Shown one piece after another: positions 6,996 to 17,166 of a stretch of DNA of 49,576 nt (position 1 is its first letter; every line of letters begins with the position of its first letter). The notes beneath the pieces are model-generated. The model searched no databases. It was not told the DNA's origin and was given only the letters and a program-made list of their open reading frames with translations. This DNA comes from Nitrosomonadales bacterium (GTDB taxonomy: Bacteria; Pseudomonadota; Gammaproteobacteria; Burkholderiales; SG8-41): NCBI GenBank assembly GCA_043777275.1, contig JAYVQD010000473.1, positions 1 to 49,576 on the forward strand, written 5' to 3'. The position numbers and the translations under genes are program-made.

Positions 6996-9260
<2,265 letters not shown>

Positions 9261-9316: not shown

Positions 9317-9399
9317 TTGAGCGCTAGTGTTTTTTGGCGGCATGCATCTGTCGCTACATTGCGATATTATTCGGCAACAATTTTAATCAGGAGGTGGTC

Positions 9400-9720
9400 A
9401 TGAACCATTCATGGATAGGCGCCCGGTGCGCAGCCGTTATGATCGCGGGCGCGGCAATTCCCGCGCAGGCACAAGACCCCAATCCGCATGCCGCGCGCGC
9501 ACTGGCCGCCACTTGTTTTACCTGTCATGGCACGGAAGGCCGCAGCGTTGGTGGCGTGCCACCGAGCATTGCCGGACAAAGCAAGGCAGCAATGCTGCAG
9601 CAACTGCTGGATTTCAAGGCGGGCAAGCGACCGGCGACTATCATGCATCAGCATGCCAAGGGCTACACCGATGCGCAGCTTGAGCAGATCGCCGGCTACT
9701 TTGCCGCGGTTAAACCTTGA
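9400..9720 (+). CDS. fccA: Monoheme c-type cytochrome, probable sulfide dehydrogenase cytochrome subunit
   Basis: GGAGG lies upstream of the ATG at 9400. There is a signal peptide ending AQAQ and a single CFTCH heme motif. It is immediately followed by the flavoprotein subunit gene. Confidence 0.75.
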   Translation: MNHSWIGARCAAVMIAGAAIPAQAQDPNPHAARALAATCFTCHGTEGRSVGGVPPSIAGQSKAAMLQQLLDFKAGKRPATIMHQHAKGYTDAQLEQIAGYFAAVKP

Positions 9721-9736
9721 AAAGCAGGAGACAGCC

Positions 9737-11005
9737 ATGACCATTTCCAGACGTGAATTCATGCAGTGGACGGCAACCGTGGGTGCAGCAACGCTGACAG
9801 GGTGTGCAACCACCGGCGGCGGCAGTGCAGGGCGAGTCGTCGTCATCGGCGGCGGCATCGGCGGTGGCACGGCGGCGAAATACATAAAGATGTGGTCGCC
9901 GGACATTGACGTGACGGTGGTCGAACGCGAAGCGGATTTCATCTCGTGCCCGATCAGCAATCTGGTGCTCGCGGGCAATGCGACGATGGCGCAAATTACC
10001 ACGGGCTATTCGGGGCTTGCGAATCGCGGCATCAACGTCGTGCGTGACAGCGCGGTGGCCGTTGATCCGGTGGCAAAAACCGTGCGCCTGGCGGGCGGCA
10101 CCACCCTCCGTTACGACCGCTTGATCGTCTCGCCCGGCGTTGACTTCATGTACGAAAGTATTCCCGGTCTTAACAATGCGGCGGCGCAAAGCCAGGTGTT
10201 GCACGCGTGGAAGGCCGGGCCGCAAACGCTGGCGCTGAAGAAGCAACTCGAATCGATGCGCGACGGCGGCGTGTTTGTGATGCATATCCCGCTGGCGCCT
10301 TTCCGCTGCCCGCCGGGGCCGTATGAGCGCATCTGTCAGGTGGCGGATTACTTCCAGCGGGCAAAAGCAAAATCCAAAATCATCGTGCTCGATTCGAATC
10401 CTGATCTGGTGTCCAAAGCGGGCCTGTTCCGCAGCGCGTGGAACGGTCTTTACAAAGGCATGATCGATTACCGGCCCAACAGCGAAATCGCCGATGTCGA
10501 TGTGAAGGGCATGACCATCAAGTTGCAGTTCGGTGATGTCAGGGGTGATGTGCTCAACGTGGTGCCGCCACATCGCGCGGGCGACATCGCGCTCCAGGCG
10601 GGCTTGATTACCGCGAACAATCGCTGGTGCGGCATTGACTGGCTGACGTGTGAGTCGGTTAAAGTGCCCGGCGTGCATGTGTTGGGTGATGCGACACTAT
10701 CCGCGACCGCGATGCCCAAGTCGGCGAGCATGGCGAACCAGCACGCAAAAGTGTGCGCGGCGGCAGTGATCGCGCAGATCAAGGGACAGCCCGTGAATGC
10801 GCAGCCGATGATGATGAACACGTGCTACAGCTTCGTCGATGCCAAAAATGTAATCCATGTCGCTTCGGTGCATCAGTACAGCGCGGCGGACAAATCCATG
10901 ATGGTGGTGAAGGGCGCGGGTGGTTTGTCCGACAAAGCGAGCGAACTTGAAGGCCAGTACGCATGGGGTTGGGCGAGGAATATCTGGGCGGATTCTCTAT
11001 CGTAA
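9737..11005 (+). CDS. fccB: Flavocytochrome c sulfide dehydrogenase flavoprotein subunit (Tat-exported)
   Basis: Twin-arginine leader MTISRREFMQW, FAD fold VVVIGGGIGGGTAAKY, and overall FccB/SoxF-like sequence. The track ORF (9488) is over-extended across fccA. Confidence 0.85.
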   Translation: MTISRREFMQWTATVGAATLTGCATTGGGSAGRVVVIGGGIGGGTAAKYIKMWSPDIDVTVVEREADFISCPISNLVLAGNATMAQITTGYSGLANRGINVVRDSAVAVDPVAKTVRLAGGTTLRYDRLIVSPGVDFMYESIPGLNNAAAQSQVLHAWKAGPQTLALKKQLESMRDGGVFVMHIPLAPFRCPPGPYERICQVADYFQRAKAKSKIIVLDSNPDLVSKAGLFRSAWNGLYKGMIDYRPNSEIADVDVKGMTIKLQFGDVRGDVLNVVPPHRAGDIALQAGLITANNRWCGIDWLTCESVKVPGVHVLGDATLSATAMPKSASMANQHAKVCAAAVIAQIKGQPVNAQPMMMNTCYSFVDAKNVIHVASVHQYSAADKSMMVVKGAGGLSDKASELEGQYAWGWARNIWADSLS

Positions 11006-11026: not shown

Positions 11027-11030
11027 ATTA

Positions 11031-11066
11031 AATGGCGCTGACTACTGGTCAGCGCCATTTTTTTAG
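11031..11066. terminator. Bidirectional terminator between fccB and the DUF2784 gene
   Basis: AATGGCGCTGAC-TACTG-GTCAGCGCCATT hairpin followed by TTTTTT, with an A-rich tract on the other side. Confidence 0.8.
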
Positions 11067-11455
11067 TGTGGTTTGTGGCGTCGTGGCGGGACAAACCAGA
11101 ACGTTGCCGCAACCACCAGCGCGAACGCCACATACATCACCGTGAACACCCATTCAGGAAGCTGGAAGAACATCAGTTGATGCACCCAGCGCGCGATGAA
11201 ACTTTTGTCGCTGACTGCGCCGCCGGCTGTGCTACGCAAGGCGTCCTCCCATTCAGTGAGTGGACACACGATGCCGAGCAGTGCTTCGCTGGCGACGAAA
11301 ACGATTGCGGCCAGATGCGCCGCGCGAAACCAGAAATTGCGCACCCACTGCCAGCTTGCTGCGTAACCGATCCAGATCAGTGCGAGTCCGCCCACCACAA
11401 ACAGCACGAATGCGAAGTGAACGATAAGAATAATATCAGCGGCGAACGTATGCAT
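11063..11455 (-). CDS. DUF2784-like small membrane protein (130 aa)
   Basis: Four hydrophobic segments and a CPLTEWE motif typical of DUF2784. It lies 30 nt downstream of the patatin gene on the same strand. Confidence 0.65.
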   Translation of the reverse strand: MHTFAADIILIVHFAFVLFVVGGLALIWIGYAASWQWVRNFWFRAAHLAAIVFVASEALLGIVCPLTEWEDALRSTAGGAVSDKSFIARWVHQLMFFQLPEWVFTVMYVAFALVVAATFWFVPPRRHKPH

Positions 11456-11485
11456 TGATTAGTGGCCGCACAGTGTCAGCCAGTG

Positions 11486-14407
11486 TCAGGTGGCCTCTGC
11501 GCACAACACCTTAACGATGTTGGGATGATGCTTCACCCAGGCCGACGCGGAAAGGTAGCCGAGTTTGCGATAACTTTCGAACTGCGCTTCGTCGAACCAC
11601 TGATCGGAGGTGGGGTCCTGCGGGAATTTGGGGTTGATGCGCGCGTAGGAGTCAATCTCCGCCGGCTCACTGTCGGTGAGTACCGGCTTGAGATACACCA
11701 GAATGCCCGGCGTTGCGTTTTTGTTATCGGGATCATAATGAATTTTACCAATGGCAAATTGCCGTTGGGCCCGGCCATTGGGGCCTGCGCGCAACGGCGC
11801 CACATCAATCTCGATTTCGACGTTGAAATCCACGTAGCAGCGGCGAATCGCGTTGGCGAGATCGGCGAATTCCCACCTCGGATCCGCCCCGGCGTCGGTC
11901 ACCACAATGACGCGGCAGCGCCGCCGTATCAACTCGTAAATCGCCAGATTCTCAAAATGCCCGCCGTCGCTCAGGTAGACGAAATCCGAATCGAGACTTG
12001 ACGATCCGGTGACCTCCTGCAAAAGATAAAACAGATTCGGCTTGGGATCCCGCCGATGCCACGCGCGCCCGCACGGATTGCCCACCCACGCACCCAGACG
12101 AAAATTCGCCACCGCGAGCAGGAACGCCGTTGCCCGCGAGCCATAAAATCCCATCTTGGGGCTGGCTGCGGCGCAAGACACCGCCATCGCGCGTCCGAGG
12201 CTGATGCCGCCTGGCTCGTCTGCGGCGGCATAGGCGCTGGTACGCCGGAACGCTTCACCGCGCGCACCAGGTCCTGCGGCATAGCCACAGTAATTGGGTG
12301 TGAAAACGAAGGATACCGCCTTGCGGCCCGCGCCAATCTGCCCGGACAAATCTTCGACGTTGAGCGCTGCATTGATAATCGGGTAGGGCCGATGGTCCAG
12401 TTGGGCCATCGGCAAATCGTCGCCCGCCATATCCGCAAAAAATCCGATCTTGCGCCGGTGAGCCGAGCGCACTCGCAGGTAGCAGCGCGTGATGCGTTCC
12501 TGATAAGCGTGATGCAGTGAAAATAAATTAACTTTGAGCTGACTGCCCAGATACAGCAATGCAAGCGCCAATGCCGCCGCAATGGCGAGCGACATCAGCA
12601 GATAGTCTCCCCACTGCGTCGGCCAAATATCCTCGATTGCCCACGGATTGGGCCATGCGAAGTTTGTGCTTAGCGGGAAGAAGGAATACCAGATCAAGGC
12701 CTCACTGTTGGTGAGCCTTCCGCCATGGTCACTGAGTGCGCCACAGCACCACACTGAAAAGCGGGATATCGCGTCCGGGATTCCCATGGATTTGCTCACG
12801 CCGTAAAGCTGCACGAACCATTCCCTGAATAGCCATGAAGCGCCGAGCAACAGGCCGATCATGAAAATGTAAGGGGCACTTTGCGCCAGGAGTCGGCGCA
12901 GCCGTTCCGCTATCGCGCTTTGCGCCGTGCCGGCGCGTGCCGCGAACACGCCGCCTACAGTACCGGCGAGCCAGGACGGAAGCGCTACGTGTGTGGAGAT
13001 CAACGCTTCGAACACGCTCGGGCCGTTGATCGCCAAACCGAAAAATACCAGCCACGCCAGAATCGCGAGGTTGAAACCCCCGCCCATACGGCTCCACCAT
13101 GCGTGCTCTTCGGCGCTGAGCGAACGGCCGCGCAGCCCGATCCACACGGTTTGCGCAATCAAACATTGAATGACAATCAGTGGCGTACCCAGCCACACCA
13201 GCATCCACGGATTGCCGAGTTGGTACGAATTTTCGAGCAACGGGACGGTGGATGTCAGCATGGCGGCGAGCAGGAGACTGCTCGCCACGAGTGCGCCAAG
13301 CCGCACCGGTGAACTGCCCTGGACGCCCGCGACCGCGCTGCGCGCAAAGTAAATGGTGAGGGGAATCAGCACGAACAGTGCCAGGCCATAGGTCGTGGCC
13401 TCGGCCCAGGTGTGGCCGCTTCCGGTGAGCGCGAATATGGCGGCGACGGTGCTTGCCAGCAACATGAACACCACACAAAACAAACGCGGGTCAACGATTA
13501 GAATATAACCGAATACCGTGACCGCGACCGCGATTTGCGTAGTGCCCAGCCCCACGGCCGTATCCGCAGCAGTCCAAAGCGCGAGACACACCAGCGCATT
13601 GCACACCAACATGGTCAGTGGCAACACTATCACATAATAATGCGTATTTTGCGCGTCAACTTTAGACAATGGCCAGCACGCGCCCGAACCTCGTGCCGCA
13701 TTTAACGCGCGCCCCGAAATCAGTGCGAGCAAGCCTATTCCCACGACAGCGCCCGCGATGCTCCACAACGGGTTCGGTTGTAACGACCACATGCCGACGC
13801 CGCCCCAGACCAACGCCTGCACCACCGCCATGGCCAGAAACAGCGCCAACAGGATGGTGATCAGGTTGAGCAGCAGGTTGCGCACAAAGGTGGAAACGAA
13901 GCTGGAAATGTCGAGATTGAGTGTCTTGAAACTGGGGAATACCGAACTGGACCAGTCGCGCACGAAGCGCACAGCATCGTCTTCTTTTGTTTTGTTTGCG
14001 ATGCGCGCCGCGACACGCTCCGTGGCAGTGGAATCGCCTTCCGCTTGATTGCGTTCCTCACGAATTTGCGCCGCGAGCCAGCCACCGGTGAAACCGCCGC
14101 CGGAGACCGTGGACAGATAGTCGAACTTCGTCAGCAGTCCATGCTCCGCCAGCGCTTGTGCAACACCCAGTGCGTAGCTGCCGCTACGTGTGCCGCCACC
14201 GGAAAACGCCAGAGCGGTCAAGGATGCTTCGGTCGCGCGTTGCGCGCTGGACGGGGGCGTAGCGTTCGTAGAGGCCGCAGGCGCCGCGCAGGGCGAACCC
14301 CGCAGCAAAGCAATTTCTTCGGACAACACTTGATCGAAGGCAACGCAAGGAGCATCGTCGGGCAGCCGGCCGAGTAGCTTGTCCCAAAGTTTACGTATGA
14401 ATCCCAT
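11486..14407 (-). CDS. Patatin-like phospholipase whose catalytic domain is split by a large polytopic membrane insertion (973 aa)
   Basis: Oxyanion motif SGGGTRS at about aa 69-75 and nucleophile elbow STVSGGG with Ser at about aa 102 (14104..14102). About a dozen hydrophobic helices span roughly aa 160-640. The catalytic Asp motif SDGGHFENL has Asp at about aa 814 (11968..11966). Confidence 0.8.
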   Translation of the reverse strand: MGFIRKLWDKLLGRLPDDAPCVAFDQVLSEEIALLRGSPCAAPAASTNATPPSSAQRATEASLTALAFSGGGTRSGSYALGVAQALAEHGLLTKFDYLSTVSGGGFTGGWLAAQIREERNQAEGDSTATERVAARIANKTKEDDAVRFVRDWSSSVFPSFKTLNLDISSFVSTFVRNLLLNLITILLALFLAMAVVQALVWGGVGMWSLQPNPLWSIAGAVVGIGLLALISGRALNAARGSGACWPLSKVDAQNTHYYVIVLPLTMLVCNALVCLALWTAADTAVGLGTTQIAVAVTVFGYILIVDPRLFCVVFMLLASTVAAIFALTGSGHTWAEATTYGLALFVLIPLTIYFARSAVAGVQGSSPVRLGALVASSLLLAAMLTSTVPLLENSYQLGNPWMLVWLGTPLIVIQCLIAQTVWIGLRGRSLSAEEHAWWSRMGGGFNLAILAWLVFFGLAINGPSVFEALISTHVALPSWLAGTVGGVFAARAGTAQSAIAERLRRLLAQSAPYIFMIGLLLGASWLFREWFVQLYGVSKSMGIPDAISRFSVWCCGALSDHGGRLTNSEALIWYSFFPLSTNFAWPNPWAIEDIWPTQWGDYLLMSLAIAAALALALLYLGSQLKVNLFSLHHAYQERITRCYLRVRSAHRRKIGFFADMAGDDLPMAQLDHRPYPIINAALNVEDLSGQIGAGRKAVSFVFTPNYCGYAAGPGARGEAFRRTSAYAAADEPGGISLGRAMAVSCAAASPKMGFYGSRATAFLLAVANFRLGAWVGNPCGRAWHRRDPKPNLFYLLQEVTGSSSLDSDFVYLSDGGHFENLAIYELIRRRCRVIVVTDAGADPRWEFADLANAIRRCYVDFNVEIEIDVAPLRAGPNGRAQRQFAIGKIHYDPDNKNATPGILVYLKPVLTDSEPAEIDSYARINPKFPQDPTSDQWFDEAQFESYRKLGYLSASAWVKHHPNIVKVLCAEAT

Positions 14408-14419
14408 AATCGCCCCTGG

Positions 14420-16225
14420 TCAATGTCCTCGCGCGAGCGTCGCGCGGATGCACTCGCGCAAGTCTTCGGGTAACACGGGTTTGAGCAGAAATTCAAAGTT
14501 GTCCGCGCGCGCTAGATTGCTGAGATCGGGCGTAATGCTTCCGGTGACCAGTATCGCGCGTATTTCCGGATCGAGTTCCTGGCGTAATCGCTGTGCAACC
14601 TGGATACCGTTTTCGCCGTCGCCGAGCCGGTAATCCACGATCAGCAGGTCGGGCATGCGTTCAGTCTGGTATACCGCTTCGAGCACGTCGTCGCCGGTGG
14701 CGGAGCCGATGACCTCGGCACCCCAGCCCGACAGCAGCGCCTTCATGCCGTCGACAATCGATTCTTCGTCATCGATAACGACAATCAGCTTGCCCGAAAG
14801 GTCGGTGGGTGAGGACAGTGCCGCGCGCACGCTGGGCGCGTTCGGCGCTTGCAGTTCACCCAGCGGCACGTCGAAGCTGAACACGGAACCCTGACCTGCC
14901 GCCGATTCGAGATGCATGGTATATCCGAGCAATTCGCACATGCGCTGGACGATGGACAAACCCAATCCCAAGCCCTTTTTACTGGTGCGGCCAGGGTTGC
15001 CGACCTGAAAGAACTCATCGAAGATGCGCTGCTGATGTTCGAGCGGAATGCCGATACCCGTGTCGCGCACCGCTATGCGCAACCGATCGTCGGTGCGTGC
15101 CAGCGTTAGGACAATCTTGCCGGCGGGCGTGTAGCGGATGGCGTTGCTGATCAGATTGCGCAGGATACGTTCCAGCAGCACTGCGTCGCTATGGATAATG
15201 TGTGCTTCAGTGCTCACCTCCAGTTGGAGCCCCTTGGCAGCGGTTTCCACAGTGAATTCCGCGCGCAGTCGCGCGAGCAACTCCTGGATCGCGAAACCGC
15301 CGAGTTTTGGCTTGATGACGCCTGAATCCAGTTTCGAGATGTCGAGCAGCTCATTGAACAAGGCTTCGAGCGAATGAACTGAGGCATTGATACTGCCCAC
15401 GATGCTCGCCACTTCAGGGTAACGGACTTTTTCGGCCAGCGCGGCGGCAAACAACCCCATGGCGTGCAGCGGCTGGCGCAGATCATGGCTGGCGGCGGCA
15501 AAGAATTGCGTTTTTGCACGGTTCGCCTGTTCGGCCTCAACGCGCGCCGCTTCGAGATCCGCATTCTGCTCAACCAGCTTGTCGGCGAGGATTTCTTTCT
15601 CGAGCCGGTTGCGTAACGATTCTGCCAGCATTTGATGGTAGTTGCGGCCAAACGCCACGTAACCTATGGTTACCATGCTCATGATGACGCTGATGGTGAT
15701 ATGCACCACGTCGCCTTCCATGAGATTGCGCACGATAAAGGGCAGCAGCGCCGGCAGCACAAAGGCGTAGAACGCAGGCATGTGAGCGCCGAGCATCGGA
15801 CCGCCTGCTGCGGCAGCGCCGAATACCACTATCGCCAGCAGTGCCTGATACGCGTCATGCCCCGATACAAAGAACACGAACGCCGTCGAGCCCCATAAGG
15901 CGCCCGATATGAATGCGCCACCCGTCCAGATGAGCGCCGCCCGGTCAACATTCGCGTTAACGAAACCCTTGTTGAGATCGTGGAAGTAGAGGAGTAGTCG
16001 CGACAATTGAATGAGGAAGATGCAGGCAAGCCACGCGGCGATAGTTCCCCATGGCCGTTCGCCGATGAGGGCTGTAGACAGCACGCATGCGCCTGCCACG
16101 TTGCCGGCAATGGATCGCGGCAATTGCTGATAGAGCATACGAACCTGTTCCGCGCGAATCAGCTCATCAAGCTTCGTTCTTACGCGCGGGTTCAAAATCG
16201 TTCCTAATATTTGCGCTTTGCTCAT
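14420..16225 (-). CDS. Hybrid sensor histidine kinase / response regulator with N-terminal multi-TM sensor
   Basis: H-box FFAAASHDLRQPLH, an HATPase region (DTGIGIP, GLGLGLSIV) and a C-terminal receiver (LIVVIDDEE...LLIVDYRL). The N-terminal 200 aa are hydrophobic. Confidence 0.9.
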   Translation of the reverse strand: MSKAQILGTILNPRVRTKLDELIRAEQVRMLYQQLPRSIAGNVAGACVLSTALIGERPWGTIAAWLACIFLIQLSRLLLYFHDLNKGFVNANVDRAALIWTGGAFISGALWGSTAFVFFVSGHDAYQALLAIVVFGAAAAGGPMLGAHMPAFYAFVLPALLPFIVRNLMEGDVVHITISVIMSMVTIGYVAFGRNYHQMLAESLRNRLEKEILADKLVEQNADLEAARVEAEQANRAKTQFFAAASHDLRQPLHAMGLFAAALAEKVRYPEVASIVGSINASVHSLEALFNELLDISKLDSGVIKPKLGGFAIQELLARLRAEFTVETAAKGLQLEVSTEAHIIHSDAVLLERILRNLISNAIRYTPAGKIVLTLARTDDRLRIAVRDTGIGIPLEHQQRIFDEFFQVGNPGRTSKKGLGLGLSIVQRMCELLGYTMHLESAAGQGSVFSFDVPLGELQAPNAPSVRAALSSPTDLSGKLIVVIDDEESIVDGMKALLSGWGAEVIGSATGDDVLEAVYQTERMPDLLIVDYRLGDGENGIQVAQRLRQELDPEIRAILVTGSITPDLSNLARADNFEFLLKPVLPEDLRECIRATLARGH

Positions 16226-16416
16226 GCGGGAATTTGCTCCGGGTTGGCGTCCGATGCATGGGTCGTTGCTGTGGCGATCGGCCAGACTGTGGGTGTGGCT
16301 ACTTTCCGTTGGCGTACGTTGACGAGGATGGCGCCGGCCTGCGGCTGCATCGACAAGCAGTGTTTGCGGCCACGACGATGATAGTCCACGAAGACGGAAA
16401 TGATCCCGGCTCTCAT
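16222..16416 (-). CDS. Possible small protein (64 aa) translationally coupled to the kinase gene
   Basis: Its TGA overlaps the kinase ATG (ATGA at 16225..16222). Third positions are G/C-rich and AGGGGG lies just upstream of the ATG. I recognised no family. Confidence 0.3.
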   Translation of the reverse strand: MRAGIISVFVDYHRRGRKHCLSMQPQAGAILVNVRQRKVATPTVWPIATATTHASDANPEQIPA

Positions 16417-16467
16417 GCGCCCCCTATCTGCGGCTGATTCCTGCCGCCGCTGTTTAAGTCGCCCGCT

Positions 16468-17166
16468 TCACGGGGCCGACAGCTTCAATCCCAGTTTACC
16501 GACGGCGATCACGGCCTGCGTGCGATTGTTGACGTTGAGTGAACGCAGAATCCCGCTGATGTGAGTTTTAATCGTGCCTTCCGCGAGGTTCAACGCCCGG
16601 CAGATGAGTTTGTTAGGTTTACCCTGCACCAGCAGTGACAACACCTGCCCCTGGCGTTCGGTCAGCCCCAAGTCGCGGTAGGTGACCTCGGGTTGCGCGA
16701 CGCCCGGATCCGCCGGCGGATGCGGGTGTGCTGCTGTCGACTGGCGCAGCACGTCAGCGGGCAGATACACGCCACCGGCCAGCACCAGGCGCAATGCACC
16801 CAGCAACACGTCATTCGACGACGTTTTGGGAATGAATCCCATGGCGCCGTCGTCCAGTGCGCGCATCACACTTGCCGCATCGTCCGTGGCCGACAGCACC
16901 ACCACGGGCATGCCGGCGTGCTGTTCGCGCAACTGGTGCAGCACTTCAAAACCGTTGGCGTCCGGCAGGGACAGATCAAGCAGCACCAGGTTCAAGTCAG
17001 GGTTTTCCGACGCCGCGATCAGGGTTTCCTGCGCATTGGCGGCAGTCAGTAAATCCAATTCAGGATCGAGCACCTTGAGCACCTGGCGCAACGCGTCACG
17101 GATTAGTGGATGGTCATCAACCGCAAGTATCTTCACCGGCCCCTCACTTTGGTAGTGGATAGACAT
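16468..17166 (-). CDS. NarL/LuxR-family response regulator
   Basis: Receiver domain (ILAVDDHPLIRDAL, VLLDLSLPD) plus a C-terminal LuxR HTH (LTERQGQVLSLLVQGKPNKLICRALNLAEGTIKTHISGILRSLNVNNR). Confidence 0.9.
   Translation of the reverse strand: MSIHYQSEGPVKILAVDDHPLIRDALRQVLKVLDPELDLLTAANAQETLIAASENPDLNLVLLDLSLPDANGFEVLHQLREQHAGMPVVVLSATDDAASVMRALDDGAMGFIPKTSSNDVLLGALRLVLAGGVYLPADVLRQSTAAHPHPPADPGVAQPEVTYRDLGLTERQGQVLSLLVQGKPNKLICRALNLAEGTIKTHISGILRSLNVNNRTQAVIAVGKLGLKLSAP

What the first reader, a model, noticed from the sequence alone, without database searches (positions are those of the whole stretch)
11486..14407. Patatin-like lipase whose Ser and Asp catalytic residues are separated by a roughly 500-residue polytopic membrane insertion
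The 973-aa product begins like a patatin/cPLA2-type lipase. It has an oxyanion loop SGGGTRS at about aa 69-75 and a nucleophile elbow STVSGGG with Ser at about aa 102. The DGG catalytic-Asp motif (SDGGHFENLAIYEL) does not appear until about aa 814. In canonical patatins the Ser-Asp dyad is about 130-170 residues apart. Here the intervening sequence (about aa 160-640) is a run of roughly a dozen hydrophobic helices. After it the soluble patatin fold resumes (PIINAALNVEDL..., AVSCAAASP...). This reads as a domain-insertion architecture, with a transporter-sized membrane module inside the lipase fold. It is not a simple N- or C-terminal anchor. That could couple lipid access or gating to hydrolysis.
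Basis: partly seen in the sequence, partly recalled or inferred. Interest (0 to 1): 0.65.

Follow-up and report, generated by a model that had tools for sequence, protein, structure and literature searches.

The report
Membrane-split patatin/cPLA2-type lipase
This gene encodes a probable lipid-cleaving enzyme whose two catalytic halves are separated by twelve membrane-spanning helices, an undescribed layout shared by thousands of bacterial proteins, but I could not directly show that the halves fold back into one active site.

Summary
ORF 11486-14407 (-) encodes 973 aa with SGGGTRS (69-75), the STVSGGG elbow (Ser102) and SDGG (Asp814). About 12 predicted TM helices (169-625) lie between Ser and Asp.

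The layout is family-wide. All 120 closest homologues keep the three motifs around a hydrophobic block. The C-terminal half alone recovers 11,590 clusters at 50% identity. No unsplit relative was seen.

The topology fits the interpretation. The family's modal TM count is 10 and the query has 12, both even. K+R density is 0.167 on the catalytic side and 0.070 on the other, so both halves are predicted to be cytoplasmic.

The N-half is a significant Patatin match (E 7.8e-10). Evidence that the C-half completes a cPLA2-like fold is indirect. AlphaFold pTM is 0.80. Foldseek's best hits are cPLA2 alpha and delta. hhalign's only C-half alignment pairs Asp814 with cPLA2 Asp549, but weakly (E 0.11-0.27). 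HMMER, Pfam and Foldseek on the isolated C-half found nothing.

No conserved partner gene, defence context or prior description was found. Verdict: a real, widespread, uncharacterised variant of a known enzyme fold. The coupling mechanism remains speculative.

The parts
11486..14407 (-). Complete ORF, 973 aa: a TM-split patatin/cPLA2-type acyl hydrolase.
   Evidence: ORF call. 99%-identical copies occur in 29 sequences from independent assemblies. It was called as a gene in L081.
13904..14236 (-). N-terminal catalytic half (aa 58-168): strand 1, oxyanion loop, helix, strand 2, nucleophile elbow, helices.
   Evidence: PF01734 E 7.8e-10, profile positions 1-69 of 191. pLDDT is mostly above 90 for aa 51-120 and 84-86 for aa 121-150. 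hhalign to cPLA2 gives E 3.5e-5.
14183..14203 (-). Oxyanion/phosphate-binding loop S69-G-G-G-T-R74-S75.
   Evidence: Motif position. S69, G70, G71, G72, R74 and S75 are invariant in 120 sequences. The PSSM block scores best at cPLA2 190-202 (GSGGGFR), with 0 of 500 shuffles reaching it.
14093..14113 (-). Nucleophile elbow S99-T-V-S102-G-G-G; Ser102 is the predicted nucleophile.
   Evidence: Motif position. S99, S102, G103 and G104 are invariant. It aligns with the GxSGS elbow of cPLA2, ExoU and VipD.
12533..13903 (-). Inserted membrane block (aa 169-625). About 12 predicted TM helices at roughly 176-200, 212-232, 257-282, 289-305, 309-329, 339-355, 368-390, 401-424, 442-466, 475-491, 511-533 and 601-622.
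   Evidence: Hydropathy. AlphaFold helices. Positive-inside bias 0.167 against 0.070. No Pfam family matches.
13403..13555 (-). Lineage-specific extra helix pair (about aa 285-335), absent from most homologues.
   Evidence: Alignment occupancy is <=0.3 for aa 291-315. The family's modal TM count is 10 against 12 in the query. pLDDT is below 50 here.
13085..13138 (-). Conserved cytoplasmic loop (aa 424-441); family consensus GLxGRxFxxxxREWWSR.
   Evidence: G424, R428, E436 and R440 are >=90% conserved. The loop is rich in K/R.
12608..12817 (-). Long variable loop (aa 531-600), predicted periplasmic.
   Evidence: Low occupancy and conservation. pLDDT 44-50. It is loop 11, 'out', in the topology model.
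11489..12532 (-). C-terminal catalytic half (aa 626-973): a conserved connector helix followed by an alpha/beta domain carrying Asp814.
   Evidence: It defines a family of 11,590 clusters at 50% identity. pLDDT is mostly above 90. hhalign's best alignment runs aa 804-859 to cPLA2 alpha 539-599.
11948..11971 (-). S813-D814-G-G-H-F-E-N820 motif; Asp814 is the predicted partner of the catalytic dyad and follows strand 809-813.
   Evidence: D814, G815, G816 and N820 are invariant in 120 sequences. Strand assignment. Asp814 pairs with cPLA2 Asp549 in hhalign.
11063..11455 (-). Downstream small membrane protein (DUF2784), 30 bp after the lipase stop; a probable operon partner in this organism only.
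   Evidence: ORF. Pfam PF10861 on the identical gene in L081. It is not conserved next to homologues elsewhere.
14420..16225 (-). Upstream hybrid sensor histidine kinase, ending 12 bp before the lipase start.
   Evidence: ORF. HisKA, HATPase_c and Response_reg on the identical gene in L081.
11030..11060 (.). Strong bidirectional hairpin terminator closing the minus-strand gene string.
   Evidence: 13-14 bp stem with 7 G-C pairs. This is a consensus scan only.

Best explanation
The gene encodes an integral inner-membrane serine/aspartate acyl hydrolase of the patatin/cPLA2 superfamily, probably a phospholipase A or lysophospholipase. One catalytic domain is built from two cytoplasmic segments. 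The N-half (aa 58-168) supplies the GGGxR oxyanion/phosphate loop and the Ser102 nucleophile. The C-half (aa 626-973) supplies the remaining strands and Asp814. Between them lies a block of 12 transmembrane helices (10 in most relatives). The block starts and ends on the cytoplasmic side, so the two halves can pack together. The junctions are long, conserved, confidently modelled helices, not flexible linkers: helix 165-207 runs into TM1, and TM12 leads, after a short break at 624-630, into helix 631-647. I infer from this that the catalytic domain is held rigidly against the cytoplasmic face of the membrane block, that its substrate pocket opens toward the bilayer, and that it hydrolyses acyl esters of lipids in the cytoplasmic leaflet. 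The motifs, family conservation, membrane character, topology parity and N-half homology are shown here. Completion of the fold by the C-half, the Ser-Asp juxtaposition, the substrate and any gating role of the membrane block are inferred.
For: The motifs are present and invariant in 120 homologues. The N-half matches PF01734 at E 7.8e-10, above the gathering score. A patatin N-half has no known function without the Asp-bearing part, and aa 626-973 is the only other soluble region. The two halves always occur together: the C-half is found in 11,590 clusters, and every short hit inspected was a fragment truncated inside the TM block. The modal TM count is 10 and the query has 12, both even. K+R density is 0.167 on the catalytic side and 0.070 on the other. 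The full-length AlphaFold model has pTM 0.80, with pLDDT mostly above 90 in both halves and 86-94 at the connectors. Foldseek's top hits are cPLA2 alpha (1cjy, E 8e-4) and delta (5iz5), with probability 1.0, 378-415 columns, rmsd 7-10 A and TM-score 0.32-0.34 per target. By my arithmetic these values are too high to come from the 110-residue N-half alone, so they imply that the C-half was aligned. hhalign's best and only C-half alignment pairs Asp814 with cPLA2 Asp549 and continues through the RRR/RPQR, IVxxDxG/LIISFDFS and F.DL..A/F.EL..A segments. The FTP block scores best at cPLA2 WVEFSPYEIG, in the same order along both proteins. pLDDT of residues 816-825, just after Asp814, falls from about 88 to 72 when the N-half and TM block are removed, as expected if these residues sit at an interface.
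Against: No sequence method links the C-half to a patatin or cPLA2 protein with significance. HMMER profiles against PDB sequences hit only the N-half. hmmsearch against the cPLA2 alpha C-part gives no hit. Pfam scans of the DGG segment find nothing. PF01735 reaches only E 0.031, and in the one member tabulated the match is N-terminal. The hhalign Asp alignment has E 0.11-0.27. Foldseek on the C-half modelled alone returns only noise (best E 0.05, probability 0.33, no patatin-fold protein in the top 50). That conflicts with my reading unless the prefilter lost cPLA2. Some homologues carry domains that are usually extracytoplasmic (PG_binding_1, ConA-like PF06439) on the side I call cytoplasmic. 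Nothing bears on the substrate.
Confidence: 0.65

Rival explanations
1. The C-terminal region is an unrelated domain and its DGG is fortuitous. Under this reading the protein is a membrane protein with a remnant or regulatory half-patatin segment at the N-terminus and a different C-terminal domain.
For: HMMER, Pfam and Foldseek on the isolated C-half give no patatin or cPLA2 match. The hhalign Asp alignment is not significant by score.
Against: The oxyanion Gly residues, Arg74 and Ser102 are invariant in 120 divergent sequences. That is hard to explain for a non-catalytic remnant. D814-G-G-x-x-x-N is equally invariant and follows a strand, as in patatins. hhalign's only C-half alignment falls exactly on the catalytic Asp of cPLA2 and extends 56 columns. 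The Foldseek TM-scores for cPLA2 exceed what the N-half alone could give. pTM is 0.80 for the whole chain.
Confidence: 0.1
2. The catalytic domain faces the periplasm rather than the cytoplasm and acts on the outer leaflet of the inner membrane or on outer-membrane lipids.
For: Some homologues have an N-terminal PG_binding_1 domain directly before the N-half, and others have a ConA-like PF06439 domain in the loop on the same side. Both domain types are usually extracytoplasmic. A few loci have Amidase_2 neighbours.
Against: No signal peptide or TM segment precedes the 160-290-residue N-terminal region. Loops on the catalytic side have 2.4 times the K+R density of the opposite loops across the family. 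In the query the loops on the catalytic side carry 9 K/R in 69 residues. The five short opposite loops carry none, and the long 70-residue loop carries 3.
Confidence: 0.08
3. The architecture is the same, but the biological role is a self-contained conflict or suicide effector. The lipase is kept inactive in the membrane and is triggered by a sensor module or by envelope damage to destroy the cell's own membrane. It is not a housekeeping lipid-remodelling enzyme.
For: Patatin-like lipases are common abortive-infection effectors, for example CapV (PMC12480259, listed). The family has highly variable accessory domains: PG_binding_1, PF06439, DUF2064 and a C-terminal extension. It has no conserved operon partner. 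Other lipase or hydrolase genes are occasional neighbours, including Tle1-like and Lipase_3. It is present on megaplasmids.
Against: There are no PADLOC hits for the protein and only 6 sporadic hits among 107 neighbours. There are no phage copies. Here it sits between housekeeping-type genes (a two-component system, sulfide dehydrogenase, ClpA) and not in a defence island.
Confidence: 0.2

Closest known systems
Cytosolic phospholipase A2 (group IV; PDB 1cjy alpha, 5iz5/5ixc delta; Pfam PF01735 PLA2_B)
   Same: It shares the GGGxR oxyanion loop with the Arg, a Ser nucleophile about 30 residues later, a Ser/Asp dyad, and a long Ser-Asp separation caused by an inserted module (321 residues with the 'cap' in cPLA2 alpha). 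cPLA2 gives the best Foldseek matches of the full model. The segment around Asp814 aligns to the segment around Asp549.
   Different: cPLA2 is eukaryotic and soluble and is recruited to membranes by a C2 domain, and its insert is a soluble cap/lid. Here the insert is a 10-12-helix membrane block at a different point, about 65 residues after the Ser. There is no C2 domain. PF01735 is not matched above threshold.
Patatin / PNPLA domain proteins (Pfam PF01734, PROSITE PS51635; Pat17, PNPLA2, PNPLA9)
   Same: It shares the three motifs that define the family: a Gly-rich oxyanion loop, a serine elbow and DGA/G (PMC12871566). The Pfam match to the first third of the domain is significant.
   Different: The canonical domain is a contiguous stretch of about 180 residues with the dyad 119-135 residues apart. 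Here the profile match stops at position 69 of 191, and the Asp motif lies 712 residues after the Ser. The elbow is T-x-S-G-G, not G-x-S-x-G.
ExoU and VipD (bacterial patatin-like toxins)
   Same: They are bacterial and show N-half sequence and structure similarity. The Ser-Asp spacing is enlarged to 202-215 residues.
   Different: They are soluble secreted effectors activated by host cofactors. They have no membrane block, and only about 100-140 columns align.
PNPLA6/NTE and PNPLA7, PlpD, and PlaF-type membrane-anchored lipases (comparison from my own knowledge)
   Same: These are lipases that are permanently attached to a membrane.
   Different: The membrane element is a terminal anchor or a separate barrel domain placed before or after an intact catalytic domain. 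It is not a polytopic block inserted inside the catalytic fold.
Mammalian membrane adenylyl cyclases (6TM-C1-6TM-C2) as an architectural analogy (from my own knowledge)
   Same: One cytoplasmic catalytic unit is assembled from two segments separated in sequence by a block of membrane helices.
   Different: C1 and C2 are two homologous domains forming a pseudo-dimer. Here the two segments would be complementary pieces of a single domain. There is no sequence or fold relationship.

Membership tests
Patatin/PNPLA (PF01734, PS51635) | Glycine-rich oxyanion motif (GGxR/K) after the first strand | tested here: met
   S69-G-G-G-T-R74 is present and invariant in 120 homologues. It lies inside the PF01734 hit at E 7.8e-10.
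Patatin/PNPLA (PF01734, PS51635) | GXSXG nucleophile elbow | tested here: inconclusive
   The Ser is invariant and aligns with the nucleophile of cPLA2, ExoU and VipD. The motif reads T-V-S-G-G, however, and the first Gly is Ser/Thr throughout the family.
Patatin/PNPLA (PF01734, PS51635) | DGA/G motif carrying the catalytic Asp at the end of a strand | tested here: met
   D814-G-G is invariant in 120 of 120 sequences and follows strand 809-813. Homology of this Asp to a known catalytic Asp has only weak support (hhalign E 0.11-0.27).
Patatin/PNPLA (PF01734, PS51635) | Contiguous domain of about 180 residues matched end to end by the family profile | tested here: not met
   The Pfam hit covers profile positions 1-69 of 191 only. 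TM-deleted sequences also give only 1-69. The DGG segment alone gives no hit.
Patatin/PNPLA (PF01734, PS51635) | Ser and Asp juxtaposed in one alpha/beta fold | not testable with these tools
   Structure prediction returns pLDDT, pTM and secondary structure but no coordinates or PAE. pTM 0.80 is compatible with juxtaposition but is not proof.
cPLA2 / PLA2_B (PF01735) | Family profile matched above the curated threshold | tested here: not met
   11 of 20 TM-deleted members hit PF01735, with a best E of 0.031. In the one member tabulated the match is at the N-terminal motif (9.7 bits; curated cut-off 23).
cPLA2 / PLA2_B (PF01735) | Structural similarity of the whole catalytic domain | tested here: inconclusive
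   For the full model the top hits are 1cjy and 5iz5 (E 8e-4, probability 1.0, about 415 columns, TM-score per target 0.32-0.34). For the isolated C-half model there is no cPLA2 hit in the top 50.
cPLA2 / PLA2_B (PF01735) | Asp motif D-x-G-x-x-x-N-L followed by a basic segment, a hydrophobic strand and D-x-S/G | tested here: inconclusive
   hhalign aligns aa 804-859 to cPLA2 alpha 539-599, pairing D814 with D549. It is the only C-half hit, but E is 0.11-0.27. In the PSSM scan this site ranks second.
Known anti-phage defence proteins (PADLOC-DB 2.0) | Match to any defence-system model | tested here: not met
   There are no hits at E <= 10 for the protein, and only 6 sporadic hits among 107 neighbour proteins.
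MATE/MOP or other known transporter family (for the membrane block) | Sequence or structural match of the TM block | tested here: not met
   No Pfam family covers aa 169-625. Foldseek MATE hits have E 0.07-1.7, probability <= 0.3, rmsd 27-30 A and TM-score about 0.15. Profile hits to PDB membrane proteins have E >= 0.03 and are driven by hydrophobic composition.

The most novel reading that the evidence does not exclude
This would be a previously undescribed, very widespread class of integral-membrane phospholipase (more than 10,000 clusters at 50% identity). A polytopic membrane module has been inserted into the helical, pocket-lining part of a cPLA2/patatin fold, so the transmembrane helices themselves would form the lipid entry path. 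Substrates would then pass laterally from the bilayer into a soluble-type Ser/Asp active site. Accessory sensor domains fused in different lineages may gate this.
Probability: 0.4. Interest if true: 0.75.

Novelty: new variant of a known kind. Interest (0 to 1): 0.58.

Why it matters
Patatin and cPLA2 lipases are usually soluble enzymes that must be recruited to, or activated at, a membrane. A version permanently built into the membrane, with a 10-12-helix block inside the catalytic fold, would be a different answer to the interfacial-access problem. It would also be an unusual case of a membrane domain inserted into a soluble enzyme domain. The family is large and spread across Acidobacteriota, Pseudomonadota, Bacteroidota, Verrucomicrobiota, Nitrospirota and others. 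Databases label it only 'hypothetical' or 'patatin-like phospholipase family protein'. No curated model covers the membrane block or the C-half. Working out its substrate could reveal a common but unrecognised route of bacterial membrane-lipid turnover, or a self-contained membrane-destroying effector.

Tried and rejected
1. Profile HMM searches of PDB sequences with the full family alignment and the TM-deleted alignment gave only N-half hits to VipD, cPLA2 delta and ExoU at E 0.02-1.

2. An hmmsearch of a C-half HMM against the cPLA2 alpha C-part with filters off gave no alignment.

3. Pfam scans of TM-deleted members and of the 75-residue DGG segment from ten members gave no C-terminal Patatin or PLA2_B match.

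4. Foldseek on the C-half modelled alone returned only noise: RelP, tyrosine phosphatases and pol beta.

5. I looked for natural unsplit relatives among the short hits of the exhaustive C-half search. All ten inspected start inside the TM block or just before the C-half, so they are N-terminally truncated fragments.

6. I built a broader cPLA2 profile. The best 120 hits were almost all tetrapod cPLA2 alpha orthologues, so template diversity stayed low (Neff about 2) and the hhalign result did not change.

7. A search for a conserved operon partner in 80 loci found that no neighbour family occurs in more than 4 loci.

8. A defence-island context is not supported.

9. The TM block is not convincingly similar to MATE transporters.

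10. A test for an internal repeat in the TM block gave an off-diagonal hhalign hit at P about 1e-3. That is too weak to separate from hydrophobic composition bias.

11. The two public runs that hold the sequence are of unknown type and give only fragmentary low-depth contigs, so they give no usable transcription evidence.

12. Four literature searches for a patatin domain interrupted by membrane helices found nothing relevant in the held library. The searches also found nothing.
Full report
**Observation**

The minus-strand ORF at 11486-14407 encodes 973 aa.
- SGGGTRS at 69-75
- STVSGGG at 99-105, with Ser102
- SDGG at 813-816, with Asp814
- PIINAALN at 676
- AVSCAAASP at 742

Hydrophobic segments run from 169 to 626. 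Two details need correcting.

**A family feature, not an accident of one gene**

A search of the 5.8-billion-protein collection returned 1,855 hits among the 8,000 candidates scored. All 120 best hits (890-1,630 aa) carry three things in the same order, with the hydrophobic block between the second and third:
- GGGxR
- a Ser exactly 32 residues later
- DGGxx[D/E]N, 580-900 residues further on

In the 120-sequence alignment G70-G72, R74, S102, D814-G816 and N820 are invariant.

An exhaustive HMMER search with the C-half alone (aa 626-973) found 11,590 clusters at 50% identity with E <= 1e-3, and 5,404 with E <= 1e-30. Pfam does not recognise this region. In nearly all of the best 150 hits the C-half lies beyond residue 500. 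The ten short exceptions I read start inside the membrane block or just before the C-half, so they are N-terminally truncated fragments. I found no natural unsplit relative.

They include Acidobacteriota, Beta-, Gamma- and Alphaproteobacteria, Bacteroidota, Verrucomicrobiota, Nitrospira, Chlorobi and Gemmatimonadota. Sources name these proteins 'hypothetical' or 'patatin-like phospholipase family protein'.

**The membrane block and its topology**

| Measure | Result |
|---|---|
| TM segments between Ser and Asp, query | 12 |
| Same count, family mode | 10 (52 of 120) |
| AlphaFold structure of aa 165-623 | almost entirely helical |
| K+R density, loops on the catalytic side | 0.167 |
| K+R density, opposite loops | 0.070 |

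The difference between 12 and 10 is a helix pair at about aa 285-335. Most homologues lack it (alignment occupancy <= 0.3).

In the query, the loops on the catalytic side carry 9 K/R in 69 residues. The five short opposite loops carry none. No signal peptide or TM segment precedes the N-half. An even helix count together with the positive-inside pattern puts both soluble halves in the cytoplasm. A reassembled domain requires exactly this.

The best-conserved parts of the block are its two ends and the cytoplasmic loop GLxGRxFxxxxREWWSR at 424-441. The ends are:
- TM1, with the RNLLLNL motif, continuous with soluble helix 165-175
- TM12, leading into the SWRVDINLFSxHxFYRNRLxRCYLGAS helix at 627-647

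These connectors are modelled as long helices with pLDDT 86-94. That argues for a rigid, integrated arrangement and against a loose tether.

No Pfam family covers the block. MATE-transporter Foldseek hits are unconvincing, with probability <= 0.3 and rmsd 27-30 A. A self-comparison gives only a weak hint of an internal repeat.

**Do the two halves make one patatin/cPLA2 fold?**

The N-half clearly belongs. PF01734 matches at E 7.8e-10 (39.7 bits against a cut-off of 27.7), covering profile positions 1-69 of 191. hhalign to cPLA2 gives E 3.5e-5.

For the C-half the evidence is mixed. In favour:

1. The invariant D-G-G-x-x-x-N follows a strand.
2. The full-length AlphaFold model has pTM 0.80, with both halves mostly above pLDDT 90. 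By my rough estimate, if the N-half were not confidently placed relative to the rest, pTM would be nearer 0.7.
3. Foldseek's top hits for the full model are cPLA2 alpha and delta.
   - Best E is 8e-4 and probability is 1.0.
   - The alignments span 378-415 columns, with rmsd 7-10 A and TM-score per target 0.32-0.34.
   - Patatin, ExoU and VipD align over only about 100-140 columns.
   - A 110-residue N-half could give at most about 0.18 TM-score per target.
   - Adding membrane helices would give rmsd values like the 27-30 A of the MATE hits.
   - So I infer that the cPLA2 alignment covers the C-half. The tool prints no alignment ranges, so this is an inference.
4. I verified my recalled cPLA2 alpha sequence against 1cjy (605 of 605 identical) and added delta and 120 orthologues.
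   - hhalign's only C-half alignment then runs from aa 804-859 to cPLA2 alpha 539-599.
   - It pairs Asp814 with the catalytic Asp549.
   - It continues through the basic segment, the next strand with its Asp, and the following helix.
5. The FTPxxCG block scores best at cPLA2 WVEFSPYEIG, in the same order along both proteins.
6. Residues 816-825 lose confidence (about 88 to 72) when the C-half is modelled without the rest.

Against:

- The hhalign score is not significant (E 0.11-0.27).
- HMMER and Pfam see nothing in the C-half.
- Foldseek with the isolated C-half model returns only noise.

A prefilter loss could explain that last result. In the full-length search the N-half may have carried cPLA2 through the prefilter. 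I could not test this.

Overall I put the single-fold reading at roughly 85%. The full mechanistic statement, which adds the membrane-facing pocket and the lipid substrate, I put at 0.65.

**Context and function**

Here the gene sits on the minus strand in this order: LuxR-type response regulator, hybrid histidine kinase, this gene, then DUF2784. The last two gaps are 12 and 30 bp, and a strong hairpin follows at 11030-11060. This order is not conserved elsewhere. Among 80 loci no neighbour family occurs in more than 4.

Pfam and PADLOC scans of 107 neighbour proteins show 112 different Pfam families and only sporadic defence hits. The protein itself has no PADLOC or NCBIfam hit. Copies occur on 43 plasmid records, mostly megaplasmids or chromids, and on no phage record.

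Homologues add variable modules:
- an N-terminal PG_binding_1 domain
- a ConA-like PF06439 domain in the loop after TM2
- DUF2064
- a C-terminal extension of about 300 aa

I favour a housekeeping membrane-lipid hydrolase, such as a phospholipase A or lysophospholipase acting on the cytoplasmic leaflet. The alternative is a self-contained suicide effector. The data do not decide between them.

**Comparison and novelty**

The closest known enzymes are group IV cPLA2s. They have the same GGGxR...Ser...Asp logic and a large module inserted between Ser and Asp. Their insert is a soluble cap, however, and membrane binding comes from a separate C2 domain. Membrane-attached patatins such as PNPLA6/7 and PlpD have terminal anchors or barrels (from my own knowledge).

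I found no description of a patatin or cPLA2 domain interrupted by a polytopic membrane block in the held literature. I therefore class this as a new variant of a known kind. It is real, widespread and uncharacterised. The key structural claim is still indirect, and the proposed coupling of the membrane block to catalysis is untested.

Noticed in passing
window 11030-17166 (minus strand): The genes run in this order: LuxR-type response regulator (16468-17166), hybrid histidine kinase (14420-16225), the split lipase, then DUF2784 (11063-11455). The last two gaps are only 12 and 30 bp. Promoter-like sites lie upstream of the regulator, and a strong bidirectional hairpin lies at 11030-11060. This looks like one operon under two-component control. 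The same order occurs in L081.
   Followed up: partly
window 9334-11005 (+): This is a flavocytochrome c sulfide dehydrogenase pair. A small cytochrome c ORF with CxxCH lies at 9334-9720, followed by the flavoprotein. The mechanical ORF start at 9488 is probably over-extended, because the identical gene in L081 is called at 422 aa rather than 505. This suggests a sulfur-oxidising betaproteobacterium.
   Followed up: no
homologues P0003/P0004 (aa 10-65), P0019/P0027 (aa 242-423), P0103 (aa 69-149); consensus of alignment A1: Relatives carry extra modules that the window protein lacks. These are an N-terminal PG_binding_1 domain, a ConA-like PF06439 domain inserted in the loop after TM2, DUF2064, and a C-terminal extension of about 300 aa with the motif HPDNRGWMNLFxHWSW. 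PG_binding_1 and PF06439 are usually extracytoplasmic, yet they sit on the side predicted here to be cytoplasmic. This is unexplained.
   Followed up: partly
window 11486-14407 (aa 154-157, 645-646, 689-690, 745): The window protein is a divergent member of its family. Its nearest cluster outside its own is 35-48% identical. It departs from positions that are >=90% conserved, including N154, Y155, L156, T157, G645, A646, W689, Q690 and G745 (Cys here). It keeps every invariant catalytic residue. It also has an extra helix pair at about aa 285-335.
   Followed up: partly
loci L001-L080, genes flanking the homologue: No partner gene is conserved. However, several loci have another hydrolase next door: alpha/beta-hydrolases in 4 loci, Amidase_2 (peptidoglycan amidase) in 4, the T6SS Tle1-like phospholipase domain in 2 and Lipase_3 in 2.
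   Followed up: partly
window aa 165-630 of the ORF (12518-13915): A self-comparison of the membrane block profile gives an off-diagonal match at P about 1e-3, aligning profile columns 156-375 with 9-259. It may reflect an internal duplication (5+5 helices) or only hydrophobic composition.
   Followed up: partly
window 6996-9260 (+): This 754-aa ORF has two AAA+ Walker A motifs (GVGKT and GVGKTE) and reads as a ClpA-type chaperone. I identified it by eye only.
   Followed up: no
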